Positions 22,043-35,820 of a stretch of DNA of 64,000 nucleotides are shown one piece after another; position 1 is the stretch's first letter, and the number at the start of each line of letters is the position of its first letter. The notes under the pieces were generated by a model. The model saw nothing but the letters and a program-made list of their open reading frames with translations. It was not told the DNA's origin and ran no database searches. This stretch comes from a virus, in UHGV virus genome UHGV-0298424, one strand, 5' to 3'. The translations under genes were made by a program, and so were the position numbers.

Positions 22043-22047
22043 GAGTG

Positions 22048-22506
22048 TCAGTACAAACACGATGTCAAGTATTGGTTATACGAATCGAGCAGTGCCTGAC
22101 GGTCGGAACGGTAATTCCACAACAAATTATTGAGTTTACGCGATAAATCACGGCTAATCTCCTGGGCCGTTAAAGAGCTCTCATCAAGAAACATGCGCTC
22201 AGGTACAACGTGTAATTTCGGTAACTCATAGCGTTCACAAAGTGGAGCCAACATTGGTGGACTCCAGCCACGTTTAGCGGCTTGCTGGTTTAAATTTCGT
22301 GTGTAGACATAAACGTAATAAGCATAGGTGTTGACATCTGCAACATACTCACGCATTGCATTCTTGTCAATTTTCCAATTCACCATTATTGGCGGTTCAG
22401 GAGGAAGTTCCAGTGGTCTATAAGCTGGACGTTTAACTTCGTCACCGTAGCTATTACTCACCAACCCCACGAACACTACCATGATGAATAATAGCATTTT
22501 CATCAA
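22048..22506 (-). CDS. secreted hypothetical protein
   Basis: N-terminal signal peptide MMKMLLFIMVVFVGLVSNSYG; no lipobox Cys. Confidence 0.45.
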   Translation of the reverse strand: MMKMLLFIMVVFVGLVSNSYGDEVKRPAYRPLELPPEPPIMVNWKIDKNAMREYVADVNTYAYYVYVYTRNLNQQAAKRGWSPPMLAPLCERYELPKLHVVPERMFLDESSLTAQEISRDLSRKLNNLLWNYRSDRQALLDSYNQYLTSCLY

Positions 22507-23010
22507 TCACTCCTTAGAAGACGATAGCGTCTTTATGATCTCCTGTCGAAAACTGTTCGCGTTTAAATTACCAACAGGTCTCGCCGAAGCCTCTTTACGT
22601 TGTTCTGGTGTTGAAGCCGGATTAACAGGAGTTTCTGGTTTTGCCGAGGACAGATCCTTCGTCGTACCGCTCGCTTTCGATGAATTAAACGTGCTTTCAT
22701 ATGGCGGTTTCTGGCCGAGGCAAACGAAGAGTCTGTCGTATAACTTATCATTATCTTCTTTTAGTTTATCTCGATCTTGTTTCATCTCTTGGTAAGACTG
22801 TGACATATAAGTGTCATGAGACTGCACTGCAACGAGCGCGTGAAACTGTTGTACATAGGCGTAGGAGACGAAGCCAGAATACGACAACAAGATCGTGATG
22901 ATTAAAGTCATTATCTTGCTTGCTCTTGATACGTTTTCTCCTTCTCCTGGTTTAAATGCTTCCATTAACATCTGAAGGAAGAACGGAAGCACTTTAAAAA
23001 ATGAACCCAT
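22507..23010 (-). CDS. membrane-anchored coiled-coil protein
   Basis: hydrophobic helix TLIITILLSYSGFVSYAYV then charged helical region and Pro/Thr-rich tail. Confidence 0.4.
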   Translation of the reverse strand: MGSFFKVLPFFLQMLMEAFKPGEGENVSRASKIMTLIITILLSYSGFVSYAYVQQFHALVAVQSHDTYMSQSYQEMKQDRDKLKEDNDKLYDRLFVCLGQKPPYESTFNSSKASGTTKDLSSAKPETPVNPASTPEQRKEASARPVGNLNANSFRQEIIKTLSSSKE

Positions 23011-23035
23011 TGCTCACCTCGGAGTATTTTTAATT

Positions 23036-24409
23036 ATGTTAGACTTACAAGGTTTTATTCAGATACCGGCACTGTTTGACAATCAGGACGGCGTCACCGC
23101 TCCGGTGGGCGAGCTGTCGGATTTGACACTCTCGTACGCGAAGAGTAAACAGACGTTTACCAAAACCAATTTGCAAGTTCAATTGGTGACTTTTACGTCT
23201 AAACGAGAAAAACAGACGGTTGTTGTACCAGCCGAATTTTCTGATCATATTCTAACCGTTTCTCAATGGATATACCAGCAAGCCATCTTGGGGAATCTGA
23301 GAAATGACGAACTTGAATTCCAGCGCCTGTTACTAGGACAATTCCAATCAACCATTTCTGGCGTTCAGTCCGGTGCGATGATCCAGACGAACAGTAACTG
23401 GTTCCCACGCTGGGTGAGCTGGAAATATGAAGCAACAGCAGATCAAGTACAAGATGACACTGATGTAGATAATCAGATCATTGTTTGGTTCTCGGATGAA
23501 GACTTCGATCAAGATTACACAGGGTTCGAAATCGAAGTGCAGATGCCGATTTCACCAATCGACACATTTTTGTCGACCAAGTCAGTCGTTGAAAAGGCGA
23601 TGGAAGGGTTTAACCTCACCGAACACCATAAGAAAATCAATGAGTTAATGGCAGGATTTCCTTACACCGCTATCCAAACCAACTACTATACTTGGCACGA
23701 TAAAGAAAACTACGAGTCCACCCTAGTTGTCCCAATGTCGGTCATTATTTACGGCCGCGCGGGAAAAAACCCAACGAAAATAAAGCAAGCGTTGCGTGAA
23801 CATATTCTCGCTAATTCTAGCTTTACTGTCCCAGTCGGGGTAAAGGTATTTCCTGAAATTTTCACTACCACGAAATTTACAATTGTTCCTGGATGGAAAA
23901 TTCGTGGAATACCTAATGAGGAAGACGTAGCGGCGCTTTATTCCCCTATCCTTCCATATGATTTCTGGGTCAAAGCTATCAGTCGGTTTGGAGAATGGGC
24001 AGACCTGACGGTAGCAGAAAGAAATACTAAAACGATCAGTAAGCCTACGACAGATGTAACTGACTTACCAACCGTTTATAAATCATTAAACTGTGTTGTA
24101 ATCAGTGGGCCGGAAAATGATACGCGGAAAGCGACCTTACACGAAACTATCCCGGATTATGCGTTAATTGCGACGACTAACCCTGATATTGCACGTATGT
24201 CGAAAACAACGACCGAATGGTTGGCGTTATTCTTCCAGGCACTTATTGCTGCGGAAGAATACCACCCGTATCAAACCAGCTTAGACATTGTAAAACTGGT
24301 CGATGAGGCAGACCCTGATAACTATTTCTGGGTATTTGAGTACGATAATGTGGAATATCGAATCCTGTCTCGGAAAGCGAAATGGTACAGCGAGTTAGAC
24401 AAGGAGTAA
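23036..24409 (+). CDS. hypothetical protein (457 aa)
   Basis: plus-strand ORF followed 4 nt later by a second plus ORF; the pair ends at bidirectional terminator 25044-25069. Confidence 0.5.
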   Translation: MLDLQGFIQIPALFDNQDGVTAPVGELSDLTLSYAKSKQTFTKTNLQVQLVTFTSKREKQTVVVPAEFSDHILTVSQWIYQQAILGNLRNDELEFQRLLLGQFQSTISGVQSGAMIQTNSNWFPRWVSWKYEATADQVQDDTDVDNQIIVWFSDEDFDQDYTGFEIEVQMPISPIDTFLSTKSVVEKAMEGFNLTEHHKKINELMAGFPYTAIQTNYYTWHDKENYESTLVVPMSVIIYGRAGKNPTKIKQALREHILANSSFTVPVGVKVFPEIFTTTKFTIVPGWKIRGIPNEEDVAALYSPILPYDFWVKAISRFGEWADLTVAERNTKTISKPTTDVTDLPTVYKSLNCVVISGPENDTRKATLHETIPDYALIATTNPDIARMSKTTTEWLALFFQALIAAEEYHPYQTSLDIVKLVDEADPDNYFWVFEYDNVEYRILSRKAKWYSELDKE

Positions 24410-24412
24410 TGA

Positions 24413-25036
24413 ATGGCTACGCGTTTACCACTACAGGTACCAGTCAACACCACGGGTCTGTTTAAAGTAAAAACACCATTTACTTTAGCCGAGACAGTCA
24501 TTTATACGGTAGAGGCATCGCGTACCTTCCCAGATTTAGTACGTCAGAATATCGACGTTTATAATTCGTATTACCAGCCAGCAGGGCTAGGGCGTGAAGA
24601 ATATTTAGCAGATGCGAATGTTAGTGCGTCGATTTTGACATTTAAATCTCGTGATGGTCAAGTTGTATACATACCTGACACCTACCTGGAATCGTACCCA
24701 GGTTTATCCGGGATCACGTATCAACGAAATGTGTTAGTGGTAGATTTGGCACTAGTACCGGATTACGTGAAAGTGTCGTCTATAACAAAAGACGTTTCAG
24801 ATATTCTCACGCATACTCTGGGGATTGAACCGAAAGTTGAAATTACAACTCTCGAGTATGAGGGGAAGGTAACGGAGGAACAACACTTGCAGATGGAAGC
24901 GGCACGAAAAAATAAAATTCGTGAGTCTATTCCGTTGGGCGAGAAAGTTGCTGCGTTGACAGAAGAAAACAAAAAATTAAAAGAGTTAAACAACCAAATG
25001 TTAGAGATTCTTAAAGCTAACGGGTTAGTTAACTAA
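24413..25036 (+). CDS. hypothetical protein with C-terminal coiled coil
   Basis: 207-aa ORF; C-terminal KVAALTEENKKLKELNNQMLEILKANG heptad-like segment. Confidence 0.5.
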   Translation: MATRLPLQVPVNTTGLFKVKTPFTLAETVIYTVEASRTFPDLVRQNIDVYNSYYQPAGLGREEYLADANVSASILTFKSRDGQVVYIPDTYLESYPGLSGITYQRNVLVVDLALVPDYVKVSSITKDVSDILTHTLGIEPKVEITTLEYEGKVTEEQHLQMEAARKNKIRESIPLGEKVAALTEENKKLKELNNQMLEILKANGLVN

Positions 25037-25043
25037 AAAAGAT

Positions 25044-25069
25044 TACCCTACTCCTTCGGGAGTAGGGTA
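25044..25069. terminator. bidirectional terminator
   Basis: TACCCTACTCC-TTCG-GGAGTAGGGTA between AAAAAA and TTTTATTTT; convergent genes on both sides. Confidence 0.6.
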
Positions 25070-25078
25070 GCTTTTATT

Positions 25079-25627
25079 TTAAATGTCGACTTCTAGTTTA
25101 CGGTAATCGATGACGCCTTGAGCAATCATAGCAGCAACATCGTTCCAAGTACGAAAAATGAAGTAAACGGTATCCCCGTTTAAATAGATATTGGATTCTT
25201 TATCCGGGAAATCATCTTCGCTAAGGTAATAGTAGGGCCTGTCGAATGGGAAGTCGCGTTCATCAGAGGAGCCAAGTACCGCATAACGATTGCCACAATC
25301 AAACAGAATCTTCCAACCAGACATTTCACTATTAATGTCAATACGATCGGCGATTTCAACGGTAATAGGGGAATGATCAAGAAAACTGATTGTAATATCA
25401 CCGTTATAACGCTTGAATCGCCAAATATCTGTAGGTACGATTTCAGACGCCGCTATAAGGGAATAAAGTTGTGTTGAGGTGATCTTTTTGTAAACGTTAG
25501 TTCCATCTCCAAAATGGTTATATAAGAAATTAGCCAGGAAATTTATATCCTTTAAACGTGTGCGGAAAACAGAACCACGGCGAATACCGTAAGCCAGATG
25601 AGTTAAATATTCAGACGATGGAAACAT
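25079..25627 (-). CDS. hypothetical protein, paralog pair member A
   Basis: 182 aa; N-terminus similar to 25689..26633 product. Confidence 0.45.
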   Translation of the reverse strand: MFPSSEYLTHLAYGIRRGSVFRTRLKDINFLANFLYNHFGDGTNVYKKITSTQLYSLIAASEIVPTDIWRFKRYNGDITISFLDHSPITVEIADRIDINSEMSGWKILFDCGNRYAVLGSSDERDFPFDRPYYYLSEDDFPDKESNIYLNGDTVYFIFRTWNDVAAMIAQGVIDYRKLEVDI

Positions 25628-25658
25628 TTTAATACTCCTAAGATGGAAAAAGAATTAA

Positions 25659-25680
25659 CCCTACTCCCGGAGGAGTAGGG
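25659..25680 (-). terminator. intrinsic terminator hairpin
   Basis: CCCTACTCC-CGGA-GGAGTAGGG; T-run on minus strand. Confidence 0.5.
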
Positions 25681-25688
25681 GTCTTAGA

Positions 25689-26633
25689 TTATTTTTTGGT
25701 TTGGCCCAGCTTTTCAAGAACCAGTTCACGAATGTACTTTTGAGTACGTTTCTTCGGTGGTAAAGCCATAAGTGTGTCAACAATTTCCTGGCCACCGATA
25801 ACCTTGCTGACGAGTTGTTGAACTTGGAAGAGTTCTGCTTCTTCGTCGCTAATTTCGTTAGCTTGGTCTTTCTGACACAATGCTTCTACCAGGTCAGCTA
25901 CGGATATTTCATTTTCGTCACCAGGGAAATCCAGGTTTAACGATTCGAAAACATCGCGTTTAACGAGCACAGATTTCAGATCGTCGTAGTTTTCACAGAC
26001 GGCGACTTCTGTGCCAGGTACCGCCGGTTCATTGTACGCAGCAAACAAATCTTCCATTACTTTCTGATTGTGCTCTACTTTCAAAGCGTGGAAAGTTTTG
26101 GAGGCGCTGGTTAAAACGTAACCAATTTGCGGCCAGCTGCTCAGAATGAAGCAAACCGTGTTTCCAGTTAGACCGATATTGCCCTGACGTGCGTCAAAAA
26201 AGATTTCTTCGGTGCGAGAAATCTGTCCAAGTTCGAAATAGGTTTCTTTTTTGGCCGCGACGACTTCATACTGATTCTTACCCTGCTCTACAACAACTAA
26301 CCAGTTACCAAGAATTTCGTGTTGGTAGTTTGATACGGAAAGTGACTCGTTGCCCGCGTGCGGCTTAATGTCAATGGACGCCCGACGCATACCCATTGAG
26401 AAGTTGAACTTAACCCCGTCATGATACGCTGAGGCGTAGTCGATCGGGATAATTTCCGAGACACGTTCGATATCCATAATTGTTTCCTGCGTAACACATG
26501 CAGGATCGGTACCAATTAGATAATTATACAGAAAGTCGGCTGTAACATCTACTGATTTCCGGAAGATTGGGAAATTATGGCTGCGACGGAAAATGTTAGC
26601 CAGTGTGTAAATTACTTCAGATGGAAAAGTCAT
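25689..26633 (-). CDS. hypothetical protein, paralog pair member B
   Basis: 314 aa; shared N-terminal region plus acidic C-terminal extension. Confidence 0.45.
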   Translation of the reverse strand: MTFPSEVIYTLANIFRRSHNFPIFRKSVDVTADFLYNYLIGTDPACVTQETIMDIERVSEIIPIDYASAYHDGVKFNFSMGMRRASIDIKPHAGNESLSVSNYQHEILGNWLVVVEQGKNQYEVVAAKKETYFELGQISRTEEIFFDARQGNIGLTGNTVCFILSSWPQIGYVLTSASKTFHALKVEHNQKVMEDLFAAYNEPAVPGTEVAVCENYDDLKSVLVKRDVFESLNLDFPGDENEISVADLVEALCQKDQANEISDEEAELFQVQQLVSKVIGGQEIVDTLMALPPKKRTQKYIRELVLEKLGQTKK

Positions 26634-26686
26634 TTTAATAGTCCTCTTTTAGGTTTGTTCAAATCAACTAAGGGTTATGTAAAAAG

Positions 26687-27166
26687 TTAAAACAGTGGTA
26701 AGTTACGCCATTGACCTACCGAGTAAAAAGCTTTTGGATGTTTGCGGATATACGCTTTCGCTTCTTCTGGCAACCAACGATCGCCTACCAGTTTTTGTTG
26801 CGCAACAATTACCGCCAACAGTAAATACGGGTTTTTCGCACCGGGGAACTTTGCATTGGTTTCTAGCGCAATATCTAACATTGACGACCAGCCCAGTAAT
26901 TTACGTTGCGCCGGTAAACGTCCTTCAATAAACATTAGCCAGTCCATGATTTGTCTGGGTTTATACGGACACGTATAATTCGCCCAACTCACCATGGCGA
27001 ACTTAATAGCCTTCGCAATAACCCATACAGGAACTGCCACGAAAAGACAGAAAATGGTCAACTGTGAGGCAGGTGCATCGATAAAAGTAACCGCTACAAG
27101 AACCATACACAGTTCAAGCACCACAAACCAAAAACGTGTTGGATAACGCCAAATGAATTTTATCAT
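26687..27166 (-). CDS. putative membrane protein
   Basis: 159 aa; two N-terminal hydrophobic helices; AAGGAA SD. Confidence 0.45.
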   Translation of the reverse strand: MIKFIWRYPTRFWFVVLELCMVLVAVTFIDAPASQLTIFCLFVAVPVWVIAKAIKFAMVSWANYTCPYKPRQIMDWLMFIEGRLPAQRKLLGWSSMLDIALETNAKFPGAKNPYLLLAVIVAQQKLVGDRWLPEEAKAYIRKHPKAFYSVGQWRNLPLF

Positions 27167-27198
27167 ATCTCTGTTCCTTTAGGGAATGAAAATAAAAT

Positions 27199-27228
27199 TA
27201 CCCCTTACTCCGTAAAGGGTAAGGGGTA
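27199..27228 (-). terminator. intrinsic terminator hairpin
   Basis: TACCCCTTAC-loop-GTAAGGGGTA; T-rich after stem on minus strand. Confidence 0.45.
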
Positions 27229-27232
27229 GAGA

Positions 27233-27742
27233 TTAGAAGAACGGCTGATTTGGAATGACAGCGTACTCTAAAATGAACATGTGCTCTGGGGCGTCTTCTT
27301 TACGCCAGACTTTGTGTGTTAACACAAGTTTTTCCAGAATCGTTAGAAAACTACGCTGGCAGTATGTGTTTTCGCCAAGTAGCAGTTTCTGAAGTTCTAC
27401 AGTAGCGTCCATATACGCCTGTTTAAAGACTAGGCTACGGTTATACTGTCCGGTAAAATTCCAAAGCAAGACTTTCCCTTCTTCGGTTTCTTTTACCGTT
27501 GGACGTAAACCACAAATCCACAGCAAGGCAAGGTTGACGTTCCAGTCAAACTCTAAACCTTCCTCTTCGTCATCACCGAATGCTGTAGGTAAAGCATCGT
27601 AAAATTCGTGTTTCTCTGCGAATTCTTCATCCGATTTAATCTCGTCTTCGATGCTGCTTCGGACGATACCGTAAATGTCTTTCGCGGTTAGTTGTGCGGC
27701 TTTTGTAATGCCTTTATACCAATCGGTTACAACGATGCTCAA
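27233..27742 (-). CDS. hypothetical protein
   Basis: 169-aa ORF overlapping the upstream gene by 4 nt. Confidence 0.4.
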   Translation of the reverse strand: MSIVVTDWYKGITKAAQLTAKDIYGIVRSSIEDEIKSDEEFAEKHEFYDALPTAFGDDEEEGLEFDWNVNLALLWICGLRPTVKETEEGKVLLWNFTGQYNRSLVFKQAYMDATVELQKLLLGENTYCQRSFLTILEKLVLTHKVWRKEDAPEHMFILEYAVIPNQPFF

Positions 27743-28464
27743 AGGGTAACTCCTCTATTGATTGGAAAACTCGTGTTTATCGTATCCCAAATTTTACTAA
27801 CTTCCGCCAATTGAATCTGACGTGATGTTTTCTTCGCAAACGCAAGCTGACGTGGGGCCGAGCCCACAACAACAGGCACATCGATTTTCGCGCTATAGAA
27901 CGCGGCATCTTTCATAAAGCCTGCCATTTCTCGTTGTGCTGCTCGAGATTTGCTTTTGATTCGCGTGTGAGCGCCACTTTCACCCCAGTGGTAAGCTAAC
28001 GCAACTTCAGCCATGGTGGGCTTGCGTTTGAGTCGTTTGGTTAACCCCTTCTCAAGATGTTTAACATACGCGGTAGCCAGCAAAACAGCGTTACGCGGAT
28101 TATACAAATCGGCGTTCTGACTAAGACCTAATTCTTTTCCATAAAGCTTTAGCAGACTACGCTTGGTACTTGGAAGCATCTGTACCAGGCTGTGTGCCCG
28201 TGAGCTTTTGTTGTAAGCCTTGGGATCAAAACGTGATTCGCGATAAATCAGCGTAATCATCAGCTTAGGATCAACGCCTTGCTTTCGTGAGATTTCCACA
28301 ATTAACGGACTGACTTTTTCGAACCGATGTTGGATTTGTGTAAACTCACGCTGATGTTTAGTTTGTGGCGTTGACGTTGACGCCTGTGCGTTAAACGCGA
28401 AAAGTGTTACCAGTAAAAGAAAGAAGATACGAAACATTTTGTTTCTCCAGTTGGATTTATACAT
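27739..28464 (-). CDS. secreted lytic transglycosylase (SLT domain)
   Basis: signal peptide; ESRFDPKAYNKSSRAHSLVQM resembles the SLT E-S...GLMQ catalytic motif, followed by AYVKHL. Confidence 0.55.
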   Translation of the reverse strand: MYKSNWRNKMFRIFFLLLVTLFAFNAQASTSTPQTKHQREFTQIQHRFEKVSPLIVEISRKQGVDPKLMITLIYRESRFDPKAYNKSSRAHSLVQMLPSTKRSLLKLYGKELGLSQNADLYNPRNAVLLATAYVKHLEKGLTKRLKRKPTMAEVALAYHWGESGAHTRIKSKSRAAQREMAGFMKDAAFYSAKIDVPVVVGSAPRQLAFAKKTSRQIQLAEVSKIWDTINTSFPINRGVTL

Positions 28465-28537
28465 TTCCGTATTCCGTAAGACGAAATGACGGCGCGGACA
28501 GCTAATACTCCTTTGTTGTGTGCCCTAATGATAATAT

Positions 28538-29098
28538 CTATTTAAAAGAGTTTGGAATTAATGACTCTGCTTCTCGGTACAGCTTATCGGGTAAGTATAA
28601 CGTGTAGTGTTGCCTCCTCGGTTCAAGTTTTTTGTAAAGCCACAAGAAGATTTCTTGCCTTTCCCAGGAATCTAACCACCCATTTGCCATTCCCAGTGGA
28701 GGGATAGCAACGCTGGTATCCAGTTCCTCAACACAATCTGCTAATGCGGTAATGCCCGCAGTAACATAAGAAACCTTGGACTTTAAACGCCAATGTGTTT
28801 TCGTGGGGAGCAAGATGCACTTTTCATCAGGGTAAACGTAAACACTTCCAATCTTGATTTCGTCTTCGCGACACCGCTTACGGTAATCTTGATAAAGGTT
28901 GGGGTAGCGTTCACGGCACGCCAGTGCAATACCGCGACCCATTGCTCCTACACAGTTAATGGTAACGACTTTATAGTCTTCGGGCGCATTAAAAAGATCG
29001 TTACCAATTTTAGATTCTTTACGTACCGTTAACATAACGAATCGGCCATAGTTGATGTGTAGTATTAAAACGTGTACCGCCGATTGATAGCTCGACAA
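28538..29098 (-). CDS. macrodomain protein (TARG1/OARD1-like ADP-ribose hydrolase family)
   Basis: GNDLFNAPEDYKVVTINCVGAMGRGIALACRERYP and AIPPLGMANGWLDSW resemble recalled TARG1 signatures; true start may be ATG at 29035. Confidence 0.5.
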   Translation of the reverse strand: MSSYQSAVHVLILHINYGRFVMLTVRKESKIGNDLFNAPEDYKVVTINCVGAMGRGIALACRERYPNLYQDYRKRCREDEIKIGSVYVYPDEKCILLPTKTHWRLKSKVSYVTAGITALADCVEELDTSVAIPPLGMANGWLDSWERQEIFLWLYKKLEPRRQHYTLYLPDKLYREAESLIPNSFK

Positions 29099-29122
29099 GT
29101 ATAGCGATATATGTTTTACCCA

Positions 29123-29491
29123 TTAGCGATTTTTTGTAATCCATTGTTTGACCGCCGTTTCTAAACCTTCGTGTTGTAAGCCCAGGCGTTGCATAGTCAG
29201 TGCCAAGTTGAGCGTGTGGACAACCTGTTCACGGAACTGATGATCGTTCATGCGGTCCCAGACCTTCTCTACTGAAATATTGTGTTTCCACAGCAAATAA
29301 GCTTCGCGACACGATGCACGACGAACCAAGCTGGGTTTAACAAAAGGTAGCTCGATTTCAGGTAAGTAACCTAAAAGCTTAACTAGCTCTGTTACCTGCG
29401 TCTTACCAAAGTCGTCGCACTGATAACAAATTTGTAGAATGTCAATTTCATTCAACGGTATGCCGTAAATTGATGGGTTCACTGTGAACAT
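29123..29491 (-). CDS. hypothetical protein
   Basis: 122-aa ORF. Confidence 0.4.
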   Translation of the reverse strand: MFTVNPSIYGIPLNEIDILQICYQCDDFGKTQVTELVKLLGYLPEIELPFVKPSLVRRASCREAYLLWKHNISVEKVWDRMNDHQFREQVVHTLNLALTMQRLGLQHEGLETAVKQWITKNR

Positions 29492-29693
29492 TCGTATTCT
29501 CCTCAGGCTCGAAATATGGTTCGGGTGGCAACGTCCCTAAAGCCCCTTGGATACAAGCCGTCAATGAAGGTTTGCCGAAACAGACCTTACCTATTGTCCC
29601 TACATTGGGATGTTGTAAGAACGCTTTTGCACGTTCGTATTCTTTCCAACAAATACTCGTATCCAAACCACCCACTCCGTACGATTTTAACAT
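29448..29693 (-). CDS. hypothetical Cys-containing small protein
   Basis: start at ATG 29693 with AGGAGA SD; avoids overlap with the GNAT gene. Confidence 0.35.
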   Translation of the reverse strand: MLKSYGVGGLDTSICWKEYERAKAFLQHPNVGTIGKVCFGKPSLTACIQGALGTLPPEPYFEPEENTNVHSEPINLRHTVE

Positions 29694-29760
29694 AATTAGC
29701 TCTCCTGACGTAAATTTCTCACACTCATAGTGAGGTACGCCAAGAGAGCTTTTATTGTTT

Positions 29761-30204
29761 TTAGAATGTTTTGCTAAAATCGACCCACTCACGATCGTGT
29801 GAGTAAACCGCCTGATAGCCGCGTCGGATGAAATACTCTTTTGCTTCTTTACATTTCGCATACATGCCAGTAACAATTTCACCGAAAACTTCATCAGCGG
29901 CAATTGCTTTGAAAATCTCTTTCATTACACCCCGCTGACGATAGTCTGGGAGCACGTATACCGAACGTATCTTAAGTGAACCGTTACGATTCCGATAACT
30001 ACAGTATCCTACCGCGACATCATCCTGATACACCAGAACTATGCAGTTACCTTCGATCAGTTGCCGAGCTTTTAATTTCGGTACCGACGTTTTTATTTTT
30101 AGTAATGTAGCCTGGTGGTCCAAGTAACGGTAGTGTAGTTTGAGTAAATCGGCAGCTTGTCGTTCGCCGACTTTAGAAGATGCGTTCAACAAATAAATTT
30201 CCAT
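29761..30204 (-). CDS. GNAT-family N-acetyltransferase
   Basis: about 147 aa; YRQRGVMKEIFKAI resembles GNAT motif A; ATG at 30204. Confidence 0.45.
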   Translation of the reverse strand: MEIYLLNASSKVGERQAADLLKLHYRYLDHQATLLKIKTSVPKLKARQLIEGNCIVLVYQDDVAVGYCSYRNRNGSLKIRSVYVLPDYRQRGVMKEIFKAIAADEVFGEIVTGMYAKCKEAKEYFIRRGYQAVYSHDREWVDFSKTF

Positions 30205-30235
30205 TTGCAAACCTTAGAGACGCAAAAAAGTAAAA

Positions 30236-30364
30236 TTAAAACCAACGCGCGATGACGAATGCCGCTGCGGCTAATATGGCCGTGGTGATTATCAACCCAC
30301 CCCATGAAAGTTCCGCATCGTATAATGCGGATATCGCTACATTCGTAGTGTTTATCGAGGTCAT
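30236..30364 (-). CDS. small single-pass membrane protein (42 aa)
   Basis: not in the 60-aa track; ATG at 30364 with AGGAG SD; own translation MTSINTTNVAISALYDAELSWGGLIITTAILAAAAFVIARWF. Confidence 0.4.
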   Translation of the reverse strand: MTSINTTNVAISALYDAELSWGGLIITTAILAAAAFVIARWF

Positions 30365-30380
30365 TTTCTGCTCCTAGTAA

Positions 30381-30400
30381 TACCCTCACGCCGGAGGGTA
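30381..30400 (+). terminator. hairpin with plus-strand terminator geometry
   Basis: TACCCTC-ACGCC-GGAGGGTA followed by TTTTCCGGATTATTT on plus strand, inside the minus-gene block. Confidence 0.3.
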
Positions 30401-30531
30401 TTTTCCGGATTATTTGGGTGTTTAGTCTTCAAACGCCCATCTGTGTTGTTTAACCAGCAAGTTTAAACCTTTACCGATTAACCACATCGCACCAAGTGTT
30501 AACAGAACCCCTTCAACCATATTCCCTTCTC

Positions 30532-30717
30532 CTAATTCCGCCATTCGCATTCACGTTGACGCCAAATTGAACCCCATGATAGTTTAATCAGATAAGATGA
30601 AACTACCCATAAAATCATCACCACGCAAAACATGACATAAAGAACCGCTAGAATGGACATGAAACCAAACCCCGCCGCGTCCATAAAACGACGGAACCAA
30701 TCAGTTTGCATAAACAA
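30532..30717 (-). CDS. small membrane protein
   Basis: 61-aa ORF with hydrophobic helix FGFMSILAVLYVMFCVVMILWVV; overlaps the Rad50-like stop. Confidence 0.4.
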   Translation of the reverse strand: MFMQTDWFRRFMDAAGFGFMSILAVLYVMFCVVMILWVVSSYLIKLSWGSIWRQRECEWRN

Positions 30718-33205
30718 TTTTTACTCCTTCGTTATACACCGCAGGCAATGTCACTCCTTCCGGTTCGATGACACAGTACGATGCTTCATTAAGTTTAGAA
30801 TGGACCTCAGCTTCGTGGGAAACTACCAAGAGTTGTGAAAATTCTCCCGAGTTTGCTAACGTTTTAATAAAGCCGACCAGGTTATTACGGTGTTCCTCGT
30901 CCATGCCTTCCGAAGGCTCATCCAAAAGCAACGGAAACTGATGCAACTTCAGCGCTTTGTACGCAGTCAGTCTGAACATCAGATTAAATATAGCACGCTG
31001 TGCCTTAGACCCTTTACGCACGTCAGGAACAGGCTCAGGGTGCGTTTTTAGCTGGACAGGAAAAGTATAATCCAAATCACCGTCAGTGAGATCACAGGGC
31101 ATAACACGCATGGGGTACGTCCAGACCTGTTCGATATAACGCGTCATTAACTCTGTGATTCTAACGATAGCGTTGTAAAAATACTTTCTAAGTACACCCT
31201 TTTCTGGCGAGAAGGCTTGAATCATCAGTTTGTTATTGAACTGTTGGGCTTGTAAGTCTGTAAGTTCGCGCTCCAAACTGTTGAGCTGATTCAATTCATT
31301 TTCCATCTGACGATAACGTTCGCGTGCAGTTGTAAAAGCATCCAGCTTCCCTTCCCGCACTCGTAAGAGTTCCTCGACGACCGTATTTGTCAACGTAACC
31401 TTAACATCACTCTCTAACCGTTCGAATAACGCACTGAAATCATCTACAGCACGTTTAACATTCACTAGATAGGTAAGTGTCGTGTTAGCCAGTTCGTGCT
31501 CTCTACGACGCATTGAGAGCATCTCTGTGGCTTTACCTAACCGTGACTGTTGGAAGGCGATCTTTTGTTGTAAAGCACCATCGACGTTACCAACGGCCGC
31601 CACGGCATCCTGCCATTCTTTTTCCGCTTTCACTAACCGTTGTCGGGTTTCATGGTACTCAATAGCAGAGTACAACTCACCGTCAAACGCTGCGCATAGA
31701 CTCCCGAACTGCTCGCGAGACTCTGTGAAAACGTTACGTTCTTGCAAACGCTTAAAGAACATACTCAATACAGGGTCCTTTGAATACGTCAGTACAATCT
31801 CACGAACCTGCCGCATATAAGTTACATCAGATTCTAATTCAACACGATCGCGTAATAAGGTCTCTAGCTGTGTTTGAAGTTCCGTCCGTTGCTGCTGTTG
31901 ACCACGAATCGATGACTCGAGTTCAGGTAAAGAACGCGTAACACCTGGCCGAAACTTAAACCGACACTGCGGACAATCCACTTCTGCTGTTTCTAAGTAG
32001 TGGTTACGTTCGTGATTTAAATTCTGTAAAACGTTCTCCACTCGCTGGAGTCTATCCCGTAATCCTGCGGTTTTTTGATCCATCACCAGAAGGCGTTCTT
32101 CCAAAACATTGAGTTTCTCGGTTGAATGAATAGCGTCCAGTGTTGTTCCCAACCGTTGTCCCCAAACACGCGCATCGGTAGCCGCACGAAGTTGGTCTAA
32201 ACTGACGTTATCGTTAAATAAACCCGGAAAGAGATGCTCGGTGTCCCATTTGGTAAGTAACTCACGTAAACGTGCCAGTGTATTCTTGAGACCTTCGTGG
32301 TTCCGCATCAGGTAGTCTTGTCGTGTTGACTCATCCATCAATAACGACAAGTCTTTATTCAACATCGATACCTCTGTTTCGGTAGAAACGACGGCTTCGC
32401 GGGCTGTCGCTTCATTTTGTCGGGCGGCCAGTATCTGTTCATCAGTAGGCAACCCACCACGATGTTGTAATATTGCGTCGATGGTTGGACCCAAGCCGTT
32501 TAATAAGGCTTGGATTGTTTCGATCGTGACGGCACGATTTAATCCTGGCAACTGTTCGATTTCTCGGTTCAGTTCACGTAAATCCGATTCCAAACCTTTT
32601 AATCTCGTTGCTAATTGTTGTCGTTCTTCCTCGTTCTCAATAACGCGCGTCCGTAATTCGGCAATCTTACGACTGGTGATTTCAATACCCCCATTTAAGG
32701 CGGTAAGGTTTTTACGCAAACGTTGATAAAACCCTAACGCGTATGTAAGATCAGAGGTACTTAAACGGTAAAACCATTTACGGCGTAATTCGGTTCCCGC
32801 ATCGGTTAACAAAACCTCACCATTTAATAGTTCTTTAATTTCTTTCGTAATACCCGTGATTTCTTCAACACGGGAGTTGTAGACCTTCGCATTACCTTGC
32901 TCGACGATCTTTGCTCCCGTGGTCAGATTTTCAATATCGCAAACCAAAGAGTTACCTTTACGGGCAACTTTGAATCGATACCGTTGATCACCAACTAAAC
33001 AGTAGTTCGTGTAAGAACCGCCGTCTCTGAATTCAGTTTTAGCCGGTGCTAAGGGTAAGAATACAGACAGTAGACTGGTTTTCCCGCAACCGTTCCCACC
33101 CAGGATAATTGTTGTTGGAGACTGGATAGTGAAATCGAAAGTTTCAATTTCATGTAATCCCATCCCCGTAAAACCTTTGAGTATAATGCGTTCAACTTTT
33201 AGCAT
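30701..33205 (-). CDS. Rad50/SbcC-like SMC-family ATPase with zinc hook
   Basis: start at ATG 33205 after GGAGGTGGG; N-terminal Walker A GGNGCGKTS, long coiled coils, central CPQC hook, C-terminal LLLDEPSEGMDEEH signature/Walker B. Confidence 0.65.
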   Translation of the reverse strand: MLKVERIILKGFTGMGLHEIETFDFTIQSPTTIILGGNGCGKTSLLSVFLPLAPAKTEFRDGGSYTNYCLVGDQRYRFKVARKGNSLVCDIENLTTGAKIVEQGNAKVYNSRVEEITGITKEIKELLNGEVLLTDAGTELRRKWFYRLSTSDLTYALGFYQRLRKNLTALNGGIEITSRKIAELRTRVIENEEERQQLATRLKGLESDLRELNREIEQLPGLNRAVTIETIQALLNGLGPTIDAILQHRGGLPTDEQILAARQNEATAREAVVSTETEVSMLNKDLSLLMDESTRQDYLMRNHEGLKNTLARLRELLTKWDTEHLFPGLFNDNVSLDQLRAATDARVWGQRLGTTLDAIHSTEKLNVLEERLLVMDQKTAGLRDRLQRVENVLQNLNHERNHYLETAEVDCPQCRFKFRPGVTRSLPELESSIRGQQQQRTELQTQLETLLRDRVELESDVTYMRQVREIVLTYSKDPVLSMFFKRLQERNVFTESREQFGSLCAAFDGELYSAIEYHETRQRLVKAEKEWQDAVAAVGNVDGALQQKIAFQQSRLGKATEMLSMRRREHELANTTLTYLVNVKRAVDDFSALFERLESDVKVTLTNTVVEELLRVREGKLDAFTTARERYRQMENELNQLNSLERELTDLQAQQFNNKLMIQAFSPEKGVLRKYFYNAIVRITELMTRYIEQVWTYPMRVMPCDLTDGDLDYTFPVQLKTHPEPVPDVRKGSKAQRAIFNLMFRLTAYKALKLHQFPLLLDEPSEGMDEEHRNNLVGFIKTLANSGEFSQLLVVSHEAEVHSKLNEASYCVIEPEGVTLPAVYNEGVKIVYAN

Positions 33206-33258
33206 ACCCACCTCCATAAAGACGGAGTGTGGTGTAAAAAGAAAAAAAAACAGAGAAA

Positions 33259-33280
33259 GGGAGAACCCGAAGGTTCTCCC
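33259..33280 (-). terminator. intrinsic terminator hairpin
   Basis: GGGAGAACC-CGAA-GGTTCTCCC with 9-A run upstream (T-run on minus RNA). Confidence 0.55.
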
Positions 33281-33285
33281 AAACG

Positions 33286-33894
33286 TTATTTGGTATACGG
33301 CTGATAACCCATTGAAGTCCAATAATCGATATTCTTCGCGTTTTCTACCCAAACCTGTCCCGCCTTTGTGGCTAAGACTTCCATTGTCAGTGCACAGATC
33401 AGGTTTGTTACCGGAATGCAATTTCCTGGCGTAACGTCGTCCAGATAAACCGGGTATAAAAACGGTGATTTAATGGATTGGTACGGATAAGAATAGTGAT
33501 TGCCGACCTTCCACCCTTCCTCTACAGGACAGAGATTAAACGTACGTGTTTCTGGAACTGCGTTTTCAGAGATCCAGTTAACAACATCGGCTTTAATTCG
33601 GTCGTGGTCGATATAGTAGAACACGACACGTTGTGGGATACTTGTGGTACCAGCCGGGTCTAAAGCCTCCAACGCCTTGAAAGGCGTCGTTAACAATGTT
33701 GAACTGTTCTCAAGTGCGTAAACCAATTTTTCGTAAGCAGTCGGCGTTTTACGTTTAAAATACTCCCGTAAGCGTGGATACGCCAGGAAGCCCTCTACTT
33801 CCTCTTCCATTAAGTCGATGAATAAAGGCGTATGCGAATAACGCTCTGCATTTTGCATCGCTTCAAGAAAACGAACTAATGTAATTTCGTTCAT
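33286..33894 (-). CDS. hypothetical protein
   Basis: 202-aa ORF upstream of the Rad50-like gene; no metallophosphatase motifs seen. Confidence 0.4.
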   Translation of the reverse strand: MNEITLVRFLEAMQNAERYSHTPLFIDLMEEEVEGFLAYPRLREYFKRKTPTAYEKLVYALENSSTLLTTPFKALEALDPAGTTSIPQRVVFYYIDHDRIKADVVNWISENAVPETRTFNLCPVEEGWKVGNHYSYPYQSIKSPFLYPVYLDDVTPGNCIPVTNLICALTMEVLATKAGQVWVENAKNIDYWTSMGYQPYTK

Positions 33895-33924
33895 CTGGTC
33901 TTTCCTTTTAGATCAAAAAAAGAA

Positions 33925-33941
33925 GCCCCGAATAAACGGGG
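33925..33941 (-). terminator. intrinsic terminator hairpin
   Basis: GCCCCG-loop-GGGGC; T-run on minus strand. Confidence 0.4.
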
Positions 33942-33950
33942 CCGGGCTAA

Positions 33951-34427
33951 TTATAGCCCTAAGTGCGTGAGTGATAAAATAGGCTGTGTTTCACCTTTAA
34001 TCGTCGCGAAGGAACGATACATTTCTGCGTTACTTGAAAAAACTTCGTTAGCAACGATACATTCACCCGTCTCTAAAGAAAGGAGATAAATGTAGTCGCT
34101 CCATACGCTTTGTACCAATACCCATTCGAGCGCGGTGTCATTTTCGCGTGTTGTCCGCAGGTGGTGAAAGTAAGGCCGGATTGCGTCGACCGCTGCATTA
34201 AAACGGCGATGATAAATTCGGGTTAAATCAAATGTCCAGATTGTTTCCAGGTCAACTGGGTGTAATGTGCGCACAGTGTCGATAATCGTCGACTGATCGT
34301 TAAGGCGTGCGGCTTCAGCGATGCGCAGCAGTTTCCAGGCCACCGTTAAGTTGTGACGAATTTGTTCAGGTTTAGCCGACAGGTCATGATGAAATTGCGC
34401 AGCTTGATAGACGTTAGATAATTGCAT
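33951..34427 (-). CDS. hypothetical protein
   Basis: 158-aa ORF. Confidence 0.4.
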   Translation of the reverse strand: MQLSNVYQAAQFHHDLSAKPEQIRHNLTVAWKLLRIAEAARLNDQSTIIDTVRTLHPVDLETIWTFDLTRIYHRRFNAAVDAIRPYFHHLRTTRENDTALEWVLVQSVWSDYIYLLSLETGECIVANEVFSSNAEMYRSFATIKGETQPILSLTHLGL

Positions 34428-34464
34428 TTTAATACTCCTTTAGGTAAAACATGTCGTAAAAAAG

Positions 34465-34485
34465 GACCCCGGACATTCCGGGGTC
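34465..34485 (-). terminator. intrinsic terminator hairpin
   Basis: GACCCCGGA-CAT-TCCGGGGTC; T-run on minus strand. Confidence 0.5.
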
Positions 34486-34495
34486 AAGACTACAC

Positions 34496-34885
34496 TCAAT
34501 GATCTAATTCGATAGCGCCAGCCATCTTGCCCCGTTCTTCGATAACGATCAGATAACGGTCGCGAGATTTGCTTTTAGCGAGAGTTAAGACAACAGTAGG
34601 GTCGCACGTTTTCGTGGTGATAGGAAGAACCTCTCTTGCAACGGAATCGAGTAGAAAGTAATAACCTGCGGGACACATTGTGCCACCATCAGCTTTTACC
34701 AGAATATAGCGCCCGTCTGCGCCGACTTCTTGGCAGATTGTTTCACCGACTTCACAAACTTCAAACCCCGGGGGATTATACTGATAATCGGTATTGTTGT
34801 TTGAGGTTAGCAGTAAATCATTAACCTGGGTAGATGCCGCTACACTCAGGGAGAAGAAGAATGCTAAAGCGCAGATGAGACGCAT
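34496..34885 (-). CDS. small secreted protein 1
   Basis: signal peptide MRLICALAFFFSLSVAAS; 6 Cys in mature part. Confidence 0.45.
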   Translation of the reverse strand: MRLICALAFFFSLSVAASTQVNDLLLTSNNNTDYQYNPPGFEVCEVGETICQEVGADGRYILVKADGGTMCPAGYYFLLDSVAREVLPITTKTCDPTVVLTLAKSKSRDRYLIVIEERGKMAGAIELDH

Positions 34886-34895
34886 GAGTTACTCC

Positions 34896-35306
34896 TTAAA
34901 TTTTAAGTTTATCCATAGCTACAACGATAGGTTTTTCCGAAGTGTCTAATATCCCTACCATCGGTACACCATTTTTGATTTCGAAGAACGGTTTGTTATT
35001 GCCAGAGCACAAACGTTTGTCGTTGTATTCGAGACGTTGTGCCTTCCACGTTTCGAGGTTGAGTACGGACATAGGGCTGTCGTAGCACCAGGCCCCACCC
35101 TGCTCAACGATGAACACGTATCTGCTACCTTTGTATTTAAACAGGCTCTTCGCCTGACAGTACAGGCCGTCAATTTCTGTACAGTAGAAATCGTCGGCAC
35201 TATTGACGTACTTAATTCCAGCTGGCAACTGTGTTATTTTTGCTGATACGTTAACAGAGAACAGAATAGCAATTGCAATGAGAAGAGTGTTGATGATAGT
35301 TTTCAT
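34896..35306 (-). CDS. small secreted protein 2
   Basis: signal peptide MKTIINTLLIAIAILFSVNVSA. Confidence 0.45.
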   Translation of the reverse strand: MKTIINTLLIAIAILFSVNVSAKITQLPAGIKYVNSADDFYCTEIDGLYCQAKSLFKYKGSRYVFIVEQGGAWCYDSPMSVLNLETWKAQRLEYNDKRLCSGNNKPFFEIKNGVPMVGILDTSEKPIVVAMDKLKI

Positions 35307-35316
35307 GATAAACTCC

Positions 35317-35802
35317 TTAGTATTTAGATTGTTCTACGTACTTCTTAACCAGATAACCGAATTCAGCAACGCCGATTTCGCCGAACCAAACCAGATAACC
35401 GGGGTCGATGTTGTAGTAATAACCGACGAGTTTCTTGGTGTGTGGGTTGTATAGCGTTACGATATATTCCCAGCCACAAGCGTTAGCTTTACAACCACCA
35501 CTTTCAATCCAGATTTTGTTGTTGATATTTACCGGATACATGTTACCGCCAGGGCCATCCATGTAACCTTTAGAGCCGAACATTCCATCCAGTCCCACCG
35601 GATCTAGTGTTTTATCAACAACACCTTTAAATGACTTATCGGTATCGTACAAGTCGTTGATGTTTGGACACGCATTTGGCTGACCTTCCCGAGCGTTCCC
35701 ATCGCAGGTAAGCAATTCGTCTACGGAGGCCGCATCTACAGTAGGTGTGGCACCGATAAACAAGAAAACCAGAAAGAACATCAGTGTATGTAAACGTTTC
35801 AT
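35317..35802 (-). CDS. small secreted protein 3
   Basis: signal peptide MKRLHTLMFFLVFLFIGATPTVDA. Confidence 0.45.
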   Translation of the reverse strand: MKRLHTLMFFLVFLFIGATPTVDAASVDELLTCDGNAREGQPNACPNINDLYDTDKSFKGVVDKTLDPVGLDGMFGSKGYMDGPGGNMYPVNINNKIWIESGGCKANACGWEYIVTLYNPHTKKLVGYYYNIDPGYLVWFGEIGVAEFGYLVKKYVEQSKY

Positions 35803-35820
35803 TGTGACTACTCCTTTAGA

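What the first reader, a model, noticed from the sequence alone, without database searches (positions are those of the whole stretch)
28538..29098. Phage-encoded TARG1/OARD1-like macrodomain
The ORF carries motifs that resemble, from memory, the TARG1-type macrodomain (GDLF-x-PED...HCV-x-x-MG-x-GIA, and a later P-x-x-G-x-G-x-D-x-W segment). A phage ADP-ribose hydrolase would plausibly reverse ADP-ribosylation by host defence or toxin systems.
Basis: partly seen in the sequence, partly recalled or inferred. Interest (0 to 1): 0.55.

Follow-up and report, generated by a model that had tools for sequence, protein, structure and literature searches.

The report
Jumbo-phage AdfM anti-DarT macrodomain

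Summary
The ORF is real, on the minus strand. The true CDS is most likely 28538..29035 (165 aa, ATG).

It is a macrodomain:
- Pfam Macro scores 27 bits against a cut-off of 22.
- The PADLOC DarG model gives E=2e-37.
- The best solved relatives by sequence and by fold are the DarG antitoxin macrodomains (profile E=1e-47; TM 0.76-0.86; model pLDDT 94.6).
- Human TARG1/OARD1 is the next nearest solved family (E=5e-9).

It carries the DarG catalytic Lys (K79) and the DarG-type Asn (N27). It lacks DarG's C-terminal DarT-binding domain and has no darT neighbour.

It is 60% identical to, and syntenic with, Erwinia phage Asesino gp217. It is 36% identical to phiKZ gp104. Both were named AdfM in Cell Rep 2026 (PMC13309987). 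There, phiKZ AdfM was shown to be imported into the phage nucleus, to remove DarT2 ADP-ribose from DNA thymidine, and to protect against DarTG2.

IMG/VR contigs 94-96% identical to the window also encode a chimallin homologue, so the phage is a chimallivirus.

Verdict: observation confirmed and interpretation largely correct, though DarG/AdfM is more precise than TARG1. This is a new member of a known kind, of low interest.

The parts
28538..29035 (-). adfM-like CDS: 165-aa stand-alone DarG2-type macrodomain (ATG at 29035, stop TAG at 28540..28538).
   Evidence: ORF. Pfam Macro. PADLOC DarG, E=2e-37, covering positions 7-151 of the 329-position model. PDB DarG hits. AF2 model pLDDT 94.6. Foldseek top hits are DarG. 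60% identical to Asesino gp217, a named AdfM, and 36% to phiKZ gp104. Most full-length relatives are 161-166 aa.
29036..29098 (-). In-frame upstream extension from a TTG (21 codons).
   Evidence: Homologues start at the equivalent of M22. The stretch matches no macrodomain profile: matches begin at residue 5-13 of the 165-aa form. It stays open in the near-identical contigs, so translation is not formally excluded.
28955..28957 (-). Codon of N27. It is the equivalent of T. aquaticus DarG N22 and phiKZ AdfM N23, the residue whose mutation reduces de-ADP-ribosylation.
   Evidence: Aligned. Invariant in 20 family members. N22A and N23A effects are reported in PMC5179494 and PMC13309987.
28799..28804 (-). 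Codons of T78 and K79 in the motif PTKTHW. K79 is the catalytic lysine (Taq DarG K80, phiKZ K78, TARG1 K84). W82 just downstream is the equivalent of DarG W83.
   Evidence: Alignments. T78 and K79 are invariant. K80A inactivates TaqDarG (PMC5179494).
28670..28693 (-). Codons of G115-M-A-N-G-W-L-D122, the glycine-rich diphosphate-gripping loop (Taq DarG G117-G-N-G-G...). It has the clade-specific changes G to A117 and G to W120.
   Evidence: Alignment. G115 and G119 are invariant, and W120 is shared by the enterobacterial jumbo-phage clade only. The loop's role is described in PMC5179494.
27739..28464 (-). Downstream neighbour: SLT-type transglycosylase. This is conserved synteny with Asesino gp218 and SPN3US gp198. 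It is context only, not a functional partner.
   Evidence: Pfam SLT, E=5e-15. PHROG transglycosylase. Synteny.
29761..30210 (-). Upstream GNAT acetyltransferase, the counterpart of Asesino gp212. Context only.
   Evidence: Pfam Acetyltransf_1/7/10. Asesino annotation.
30701..33421 (-). SbcC/SMC-like ATPase, the counterpart of Asesino gp207 and SPN3US gp186. It anchors the synteny of the block that holds adfM.
   Evidence: PHROG 77, E=6.5e-91. Nucleotide similarity to L001 and L004. Annotations.

Best explanation
The gene encodes an AdfM (anti-DarT factor, macrodomain). This is an 'orphan antitoxin' that a chimallivirus (nucleus-forming jumbo phage) derived from the N-terminal macrodomain of bacterial DarG2.

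Inferred mechanism, by homology:
- The host DarT2 toxin ADP-ribosylates thymidines in single-stranded phage DNA.
- The phage protein binds the ADP-ribose through its glycine-rich loops and N27.
- It uses K79 to cleave the ribose-thymine bond, restoring unmodified DNA.
- This allows replication and, above all, genome packaging to proceed.

In relatives the protein is imported into the phage nucleus, where the DNA is. It has no DarT-binding domain, so it acts only catalytically and not by sequestering the toxin.

Shown here: macrodomain fold, DarG-type active-site residues, orthology and synteny with a named AdfM, and a chimallivirus genome background. Inferred, not shown: enzymatic activity, thymidine-ADPr specificity, nuclear import and protection from DarTG2 for this particular protein.
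For: Family assignment:
- Pfam Macro is above its cut-off.
- PADLOC DarG gives E=2e-37 over the macrodomain half only.
- NCBIfam antitoxin_DarG gives E=1.7e-36.
- The top PDB sequence hits are 5m3i, 5m31/5m3e and 7omu, all DarG.
- The AF2 model has pLDDT 94.6 and pTM 0.90. Its Foldseek top four hits are all DarG or DarTG, with TMt 0.82-0.86 for the Mtb and Taq DarG macrodomains.

Active site. PMC5179494 lists the TaqDarG ADP-ribose-contacting or mutation-sensitive residues. They map through the alignment as follows:
- Conserved or conservative: T20 to T25, N22 to N27, K29 to R34, V31 to I36, T79 to T78, K80 to K79, H82 to H81, W83 to W82, G117 to G115, N120 to N118, G121 to G119.
- Changed: N8 to D13, Q34 to A39, G119 to A117.
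- N27, T78, K79, G115 and G119 are invariant in 20 family members.

Orthology:
- 60% identity over the full length to Asesino gp217, in the same gene order: SMC-like, GNAT, small ORFs, macro, transglycosylase.
- 36% identity to phiKZ gp104, with N23 and K78 aligned.

Function of the family (PMC13309987):
- phiKZ gp104 removes DarT2 T-ADPr from an oligonucleotide, and N23A reduces this.
- It rescues E. coli from DarT2.
- phiKZ and PhiPA3 AdfM deletion mutants lose 3-6 logs of titre on DarTG2 hosts, and packaging is blocked.
- Asesino, phiKZ and PhiPA3 AdfM-GFP localise to the phage nucleus.
- The DarG macrodomain alone suffices as an antitoxin (PMC5179494).

Genome background:
- The window is 94-96% identical in DNA to stretches of IMG/VR contigs of 221 and 225 kb.
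- Those contigs also encode a homologue of the experimentally verified Asesino chimallin gp39.

The gene is under purifying selection (23 synonymous against 6 non-synonymous codon changes).
Against: - No biochemical or genetic test exists for this protein or for any member of its enterobacterial clade. For Asesino AdfM the paper reports nuclear localisation but no enzymatic or genetic test.
- The diphosphate loop differs from DarG and phiKZ (GMANGW against GxGNGG). Position A117 corresponds to TaqDarG G119, where G119E was inhibitory. Two ADPr-contact side chains differ (D13, A39).
- Neither chimallin nor PicA lies inside the 64-kb window. The chimallivirus status rests on near-identical contigs. 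PicA, which would be needed for import, was not looked for in them.
- The host is unknown. Relatives 89% identical sit in Salmonella enterica assemblies. Whether that host population carries DarTG2 was not tested.
Confidence: 0.8

Rival explanations
1. A TARG1-like protein mono-ADP-ribosylhydrolase. On this reading it removes ADP-ribose from acidic residues of proteins, either to undo host ART toxins that modify phage or host proteins, or to balance the phage's own ADP-ribosyltransferases.
For: TARG1/OARD1 is the second-closest solved family (E=5e-9; Foldseek rank 6, TM about 0.7-0.8). The catalytic Lys is shared. ARTs are common in jumbo phages (PMC7824862 and PMC9503650).
Against: DarG models score about 40 orders of magnitude better. 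TARG1's D125 aligns with an invariant Gly. DarG-specific N27 and W82 are present. According to PMC13309987, the closest bacterial relatives, the DarG2 macrodomains, act only on DNA. No ART was seen among the neighbours scanned.
Confidence: 0.07
2. A processor of small ADP-ribose metabolites, as the database labels 'Appr-1-p processing protein' and 'phosphatase' imply. It would degrade ADP-ribose-1''-phosphate, O-acetyl-ADP-ribose or ADPr-derived immune signals.
For: PHROG 335 is labelled 'phosphatase'. GenBank relatives are labelled 'Appr-1-p processing'. Weak PDB hits go to ADP-ribose 1''-phosphate phosphatases (E about 0.02). Iyer and colleagues proposed such roles for jumbo-phage Macro domains (PMC7824862).
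Against: These labels are inherited domain names, not tests. Similarity to Appr-1''-pase structures is marginal compared with DarG. Nuclear import of the orthologues and the DNA phenotype of the deletion mutants point to a DNA substrate.
Confidence: 0.06
3. A hydrolase for ADP-ribosylated RNA, for example one that counters mRNA- or tRNA-targeting ART defences, rather than for DNA.
For: This rests only on general knowledge that TARG1-class macrodomains can act on nucleic-acid ADP-ribosylation. Nothing specific from the tools supports it.
Against: The family member tested acts on DNA T-ADPr and sits in the nucleus with the DNA. RNA-seq in DarTG2 hosts showed no transcript effect.
Confidence: 0.04
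4. A chance ORF or decayed pseudogene with no function.
For: No obvious Shine-Dalgarno sequence lies upstream of the ATG.
Against: The model is high-confidence. Catalytic residues are invariant. Substitutions are biased towards synonymous. The gene is conserved at the same position across at least five genera of jumbo phages.
Confidence: 0.01

Closest known systems
AdfM (anti-DarT factor macro) of chimalliviruses: phiKZ gp104, PhiPA3 gp108, Goslar gp83, Asesino gp217 (Morgan et al., Cell Rep 2026, PMC13309987)
   Same: A stand-alone macrodomain of about 160-166 aa in a chimallin-encoding jumbo phage. It is 60% identical to and syntenic with Asesino gp217, and 36% identical to phiKZ gp104. The active-site Asn and Lys are conserved (N27, K79).
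   Different: It comes from an uncultivated lineage with no DNA-level match among 50,697 deposited phage genomes. Its clade has GMANGW instead of GCANGG in the diphosphate loop. Activity, nuclear import and anti-DarTG2 protection are untested for this clade; only the localisation of Asesino AdfM has been shown.
Bacterial DarG2 antitoxin macrodomain (T. aquaticus 5M31/5M3E, M. tuberculosis 5M3I, Thermosipho DarTG 7OMU)
   Same: The best sequence and fold match (33-36% identity over the aligned region, TMt 0.82-0.86). It shares the catalytic K, the N and the PTK(x)HW motif, and the presumed thymidine-ADPr glycohydrolase chemistry.
   Different: It covers only the first 151 or so positions of DarG models of 329-338 positions. 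It has no C-terminal DarT-binding domain and no adjacent darT gene. It is encoded by a phage and works against the system rather than within it.
Human TARG1/OARD1 (C6orf130; 4J5Q/4J5R/4J5S)
   Same: The same macrodomain subclass and the same catalytic lysine position (K84, equivalent to K79).
   Different: Only about 19-21% identity and a profile E of 5e-9 against 1e-47 for DarG. TARG1 D125 is replaced by an invariant Gly. TARG1 lacks the DarG Asn. The substrate TARG1 is known for is protein Glu-ADPr.
AdfN, the NADAR-domain orphan antitoxin of T4-like phages against DarTG1 (PMC11825919)
   Same: The same strategy: a phage carries the catalytic half of an antitoxin to erase DarT-made DNA ADP-ribosylation.
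   Different: An unrelated fold (NADAR, not macro). It acts on guanine-ADPr made by DarT1, not thymine-ADPr made by DarT2.
Macrodomains of eukaryotic RNA viruses (alphavirus nsP3, coronavirus Mac1)
   Same: Viral macrodomains that reverse host antiviral ADP-ribosylation. They are recovered as distant hits (E=2e-7 and weaker; Foldseek TM about 0.7).
   Different: A MacroD-like subclass with a different catalytic arrangement. The substrates are proteins modified by host PARPs.

Membership tests
Macro domain superfamily (Pfam PF01661) | Scores above the curated Pfam gathering threshold. | tested here: met
   27 bits against a cut-off of 22, E=4.7e-6, residues 25-116.
Macro domain superfamily (Pfam PF01661) | Three-layer alpha/beta/alpha macrodomain fold. 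| tested here: met
   The AF2 model has pLDDT 94.6 and pTM 0.90, with a mixed sheet flanked by helices. 176 PDB matches reach E<=1e-3, and the listed ones are almost all macrodomains.
DarG2-type macrodomain (DNA ADP-ribosyl glycohydrolase) | Closest sequence and structure relatives are DarG macrodomains. | tested here: met
   PADLOC DarG E=2e-37. PDB profile hits 5m3i at 1e-47, 5m31 at 2e-43 and 7omu at 2.5e-31, against TARG1 at 5e-9. Foldseek ranks 1-4 are DarG.
DarG2-type macrodomain (DNA ADP-ribosyl glycohydrolase) | The catalytic lysine (TaqDarG K80) and the substrate-positioning Asn (N22). | tested here: met
   K79 and N27 align with them and are invariant in the family alignment.
DarG2-type macrodomain (DNA ADP-ribosyl glycohydrolase) | Hydrolyses thymidine-linked ADP-ribose on ssDNA. 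| not testable with these tools
   Needs an in vitro assay. It has been shown for phiKZ gp104 (PMC13309987) but not for this protein.
Full DarG antitoxin of a DarTG toxin-antitoxin operon | A C-terminal DarT-binding domain (full length about 330-340 aa). | tested here: not met
   The protein is 165 aa. The match covers only positions 7-151 of 329 (PADLOC) and 7-155 of 338 (NCBIfam). The NCBIfam score of 126 bits is below the equivalog cut-off of 250.
Full DarG antitoxin of a DarTG toxin-antitoxin operon | An adjacent darT toxin gene. | tested here: not met
   The flanking genes are an SLT transglycosylase, a GNAT and ORFs with no Pfam DarT hit. The same phage gene order is seen in Asesino and SPN3US.
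AdfM (chimallivirus anti-DarT factor macro) | Orthology to a named AdfM. | tested here: met
   60% identity over 164 of 165 residues to Asesino gp217 (YP_009290835.1, listed as AdfM in the Figure 1 legend), E=1e-72. The neighbours are conserved. 36% identity to phiKZ gp104.
AdfM (chimallivirus anti-DarT factor macro) | Encoded by a chimallin-encoding (nucleus-forming) phage. | tested here: met
   Chimallin is not in the window itself. However, contigs IMGVR_UViG_3300045988_113438 and 3300029126_000001 carry 98%- and 96%-identical copies of the protein, and their stretches are 94-96% identical in DNA to the window. Both also encode a homologue of Asesino ChmA gp39, at 50% identity to the Seoulvirus ChmA used as first query.
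AdfM (chimallivirus anti-DarT factor macro) | PicA-dependent import into the phage nucleus. | not testable with these tools
   Needs microscopy. It has been shown for the Asesino, phiKZ and PhiPA3 proteins. A PicA homologue was not searched for in the related contigs.
AdfM (chimallivirus anti-DarT factor macro) | Protects the phage from DarTG2. | not testable with these tools
   Needs a phage deletion mutant and DarTG2-expressing hosts.
TARG1/OARD1 family | The catalytic dyad Lys84 and Asp125. | tested here: not met
   The Lys is conserved (K79). TARG1 D125 aligns with the invariant G119, and the protein's D122 aligns with TARG1 Q128 and is variable in the family (R, T or K).
TARG1/OARD1 family | Closest relatives are TARG1 orthologues. 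| tested here: not met
   TARG1 is clearly second to DarG.

The most novel reading that the evidence does not exclude
The enterobacterial 'PhuZ-less' chimallivirus clade of AdfM (SPN3US, Asesino and this phage) may have shifted specificity. It has an altered diphosphate loop (GMANGW, with A117 and W120), changed contact residues (D13, A39) and a conserved C-terminal helix-tail (YLPxxLxxEA...IPNSFK). It might act on a different DarT subtype or sequence context, or on another ADP-ribosylated nucleic acid or protein. Alternatively the tail might be a clade-specific nuclear-import signal. No member of this clade has been assayed enzymatically or genetically.
Probability: 0.1. Interest if true: 0.4.

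Novelty: new member of a known kind. Interest (0 to 1): 0.2.

Why it matters
It adds an uncultivated, probably Salmonella- or Enterobacteriaceae-infecting lineage to the AdfM family. It also shows the gene is kept, under purifying selection, at a fixed genomic position across several genera of nucleus-forming phages. This supports the recent view that the phage nucleus alone does not shield DNA from small DNA-modifying toxins.

In practice, the database labels 'hypothetical protein', 'phosphatase' and 'Appr-1-p processing protein' for this gene in SPN3US-like phages could be updated to AdfM-like. DarTG2 carriage in target strains may also matter when such jumbo phages are considered for therapy or biocontrol.

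It does not open a new question. The mechanism was published in 2026.

Tried and rejected
- Megablast of 27000-31000 against 50,697 phage genomes found no match. The phage is not a deposited one, so identification went through proteins.
- tblastn of twelve phiKZ genes against the window gave no hits. The set comprised ChmA gp54, PicA gp69, gp67 and gp68, five genes annotated as RNA polymerase subunits (gp55, gp71, gp73, gp74, gp80), the helicase gp75, the DNA polymerase gp82 and SbcD gp65. These genes lie elsewhere in the genome, or are too diverged.
- phiKZ and Goslar chimallin tblastn searches did not reach the SPN3US and Asesino clade. The experimentally verified Asesino ChmA gp39 (PMC11724907) was used instead.
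- A single-sequence scan of IMG/VR with gp39 found only close relatives. A four-sequence alignment was needed.
- The TTG start at 29098 was considered and rejected in favour of the ATG at 29035, on homologue lengths. Frame conservation in the near-identical contigs could not discriminate between the two.
- A full DarG antitoxin or DarTG operon was considered and rejected, because there is no C-terminal domain and no darT gene.
- The labels 'phosphatase' and 'Appr-1-p processing' were treated as inherited domain names, not as evidence.
- tRNA and Rfam scans of the window found nothing.

Full report
**Observation**

The ORF listing reports a 186-codon ORF at 28538..29098 on the minus strand, starting at a TTG.
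- G11-NDLFNAPED20.
- N27-CVGAMGRGIA37.
- P112-PLGMANGWLDSW124.

All are numbered from the internal ATG at 29035.

Most full-length relatives in the 5.8-billion-protein collection are 161-166 aa (one is 174 aa). The closest are exactly 165 aa, at 89-99% identity. They begin at the equivalent Met. So do the annotated SPN3US gp196 and Asesino gp217. I therefore take 28538..29035 (165 aa) as the CDS. The 63 bases upstream stay open in the near-identical contigs, so this rests on homologue lengths, not on a frame disruption. Against a 94%-identical contig the CDS shows 23 synonymous and 6 non-synonymous codon changes, which indicates purifying selection.

**What it is**

The protein is a macrodomain:
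- It passes Pfam's Macro threshold, at 27 bits against a cut-off of 22.
- It matches PHROG 335 at E=2e-34.
- It matches the PADLOC DarG model at E=2e-37.
- It matches NCBIfam's antitoxin_DarG at E=1.7e-36.

The last two matches cover only the first 151-155 positions of models 329-338 positions long. The NCBIfam score of 126 bits is far below the equivalog cut-off of 250. So the protein is the macrodomain half of DarG only.

Against the PDB by sequence, the best hits are the M. tuberculosis and T. aquaticus DarG macrodomains and the Thermosipho DarTG fusion:
- With the single sequence, E=1e-26, 3e-21 and 2e-11.
- With a 20-member family profile, E=1e-47, 2e-43 and 2.5e-31.

Human TARG1/OARD1 comes next at E=5e-9. 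Alphavirus nsP3 macrodomains and Appr-1''-p phosphatases follow at about 1e-7 and weaker.

An AlphaFold2 model built on that alignment is confident (mean pLDDT 94.6, pTM 0.90). Foldseek against the PDB again puts DarG first, with 5m3i, 5m3e and 5m31 at TMt 0.82-0.86 and rmsd 1.8-2.5 Å. TARG1 is at rank 6.

**Active site**

Jankevicius et al. (PMC5179494) list the TaqDarG residues that bind ADP-ribose: N8, L9, T20, N22, V31, Q34, T79, G117, G119, N120 and G121. They show that K80A abolishes activity and that N22A, K29E and G119E reduce it. They suggest W83 stacks on the thymine.

I mapped these through the HMMER alignment. The PDB chain index is residue number plus 10. I infer this offset, and it is consistent for all the named residues.
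- Kept or conservatively replaced: L14, T25, N27, R34, I36, T78, K79, H81, W82, G115, N118 and G119.
- Changed: N8 to D13, Q34 to A39, G119 to A117.
- The glycine after G121 is W120 here.

N27, T78, K79, G115 and G119 are invariant in the 20-member alignment. GMANGW is shared by the enterobacterial jumbo-phage clade, whereas phiKZ has GCANGG.

TARG1's second catalytic residue, D125, aligns with the invariant G119.

**Whose gene it is**

The region has no DNA-level match among 50,697 deposited phage genomes. At the protein level it matches 260 phage records, mostly jumbo phages:
- 64% identity to Salmonella phage SPN3US and the SPFM phages (Seoulvirus).
- 60-61% to Erwinia phage Asesino (61% by tblastn, 60% by BLASTP).
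- 50-58% to other Erwinia, Salmonella and Cronobacter jumbo phages.
- 35% to phiKZ gp104, annotated 'macro domain-containing protein'.

Gene order around it is the same as in SPN3US and Asesino: SMC/SbcC-like ATPase, small ORFs, GNAT, small ORFs, macrodomain, SLT transglycosylase. The other large genes of the window are also SPN3US-like, at about 50% identity.

Two IMG/VR contigs, of 220,786 and 225,000 bp, carry copies of the protein that are 98% and 96% identical. Their stretches are 96% and 94% identical in DNA to the window over 18-20 kb.

Chimallin is not in the window. phiKZ and Goslar chimallins are too diverged to reach this clade. Asesino gp39 is the chimallin shown by GFP tagging to form the nuclear shell (PMC11724907). 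It has 65%-identical homologues in the Seoulviruses. A four-sequence alignment of those homologues finds a homologue, 50% identical to the Seoulvirus query, on both of the near-identical IMG/VR contigs. The window therefore comes from a chimallivirus.

**What is known**

[quoted passage not shown] Their alignment includes Asesino gp217 (YP_009290835.1), the protein to which the window ORF is 60% identical over its full length. It also includes phiKZ gp104, which is 36% identical, with N23 and K78 aligned to N27 and K79. They report that:
- AdfM-GFP from Asesino, phiKZ and PhiPA3 localises to the phage nucleus.
- Purified phiKZ AdfM removes ADP-ribose from a DarT2-modified TNTC oligonucleotide, and N23A reduces this.
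- phiKZ AdfM rescues E. coli from DarT2.
- phiKZ and PhiPA3 AdfM mutants lose three to six logs of titre on DarTG2-expressing P. aeruginosa.
- Phage DNA becomes ADP-ribosylated, replication falls four-fold and genome packaging fails.
- The outcome depends on the nuclear concentrations of DarT2 and AdfM.
- About half of chimalliviruses encode AdfM.

Earlier work had shown that a DarG macrodomain alone suffices as an antitoxin (PMC5179494). Macro domains occur in 56% of jumbo phages (PMC9503650). A parallel case, the NADAR-domain orphan antitoxin AdfN of T4-like phages against DarTG1, is also published (PMC11825919).

**How it most likely works**

The following steps are shown here:
- A confidently modelled DarG-type macrodomain.
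- An intact Asn/Lys active site.
- No DarT-binding domain and no darT neighbour.
- Orthology and synteny with a named AdfM.
- A chimallivirus background.

The following are inferred by homology:
- The protein is imported into the phage nucleus.
- There K79 attacks the ribose-thymine bond of DarT2-made ADP-ribosyl-thymidine on single-stranded phage DNA.
- This restores the base and lets replication and packaging proceed.

I put this at about 0.8.

**Rivals**
- A TARG1-like protein de-ADP-ribosylase (0.07).
- A processor of small ADP-ribose metabolites or signals, as the inherited labels 'phosphatase' and 'Appr-1-p processing' suggest (0.06).
- A hydrolase for ADP-ribosylated RNA (0.04).
- A non-functional ORF (0.01).

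They are disfavoured by several observations:
- The preference for DarG over TARG1 or Appr-1''-pases is about 40 orders of magnitude.
- TARG1's Asp is missing.
- DarG's Asn and Trp are present.
- The published phenotypes of the family concern DNA and the nucleus.

The main reservation is that no member of the enterobacterial clade has been assayed for activity or protection, and its diphosphate loop differs from DarG's.

**Verdict**

'TARG1-like macrodomain that reverses defence ADP-ribosylation' becomes, more precisely, 'DarG2-derived AdfM that reverses DarT2 DNA ADP-ribosylation'. The kind is already described and experimentally characterised, and this is a new, uncultivated member of it. 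Interest is low (0.2).

The most novel reading left open is a shift of specificity, or an import signal, in the clade-specific loop and C-terminal tail (probability about 0.1).

Noticed in passing
window 44367..58165 (+): Three consecutive very large genes (1440, 1394 and 1728 aa) are paralogues. Each best matches a different PHROG of 'virion structural protein' (7557, 8078, 7449), but all three cross-match each other's families and phrog_2163. They look like a tandem family of virion proteins, as in SPN3US-like phages (about 52% identical to Seoulvirus homologues).
   Followed up: partly
window 30701..33421 (-): The SbcC/SMC-like ORF as listed (906 aa, TTG start) is probably over-extended at its 5' end. 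The PHROG match starts at residue 70, and the SPN3US and Asesino homologues are 836 aa. The likely start is near 'MLKVERIILKGF', about residue 73.
   Followed up: partly
whole window 1..64000: The phage has no megablast match in the 50,697-genome INPHARED set. It is 94-96% identical to two IMG/VR UViGs of 221 and 225 kb. Proteins 89% identical lie on contigs of up to 226 kb inside Salmonella enterica genome assemblies. This looks like an undescribed genus-level relative of Seoulvirus and Erskinevirus, probably infecting Salmonella or Enterobacteriaceae.
   Followed up: partly
window 12078..13574 (-): A UvsX-like recombinase (PHROG 97, E=1e-55), the likely counterpart of Asesino UvsX (gp238), which the Asesino paper GFP-tagged. 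An RNase H-like 'ribonuclease' lies at 19701..21221. Both belong to the DNA-metabolism set of chimalliviruses.
   Followed up: no
window 29123..30210 (-): The listed ORFs 29123..29491, 29448..29903 and 29761..30210 (GNAT) overlap each other by 44 and 143 bases. The middle ORF's TTG start is probably too far upstream. The two non-GNAT ORFs have no Pfam hit.
   Followed up: no
whole window 1..64000: ARAGORN finds no tRNA or tmRNA gene, and no Rfam family reaches its gathering score on either strand of the 64 kb.
   Followed up: yes
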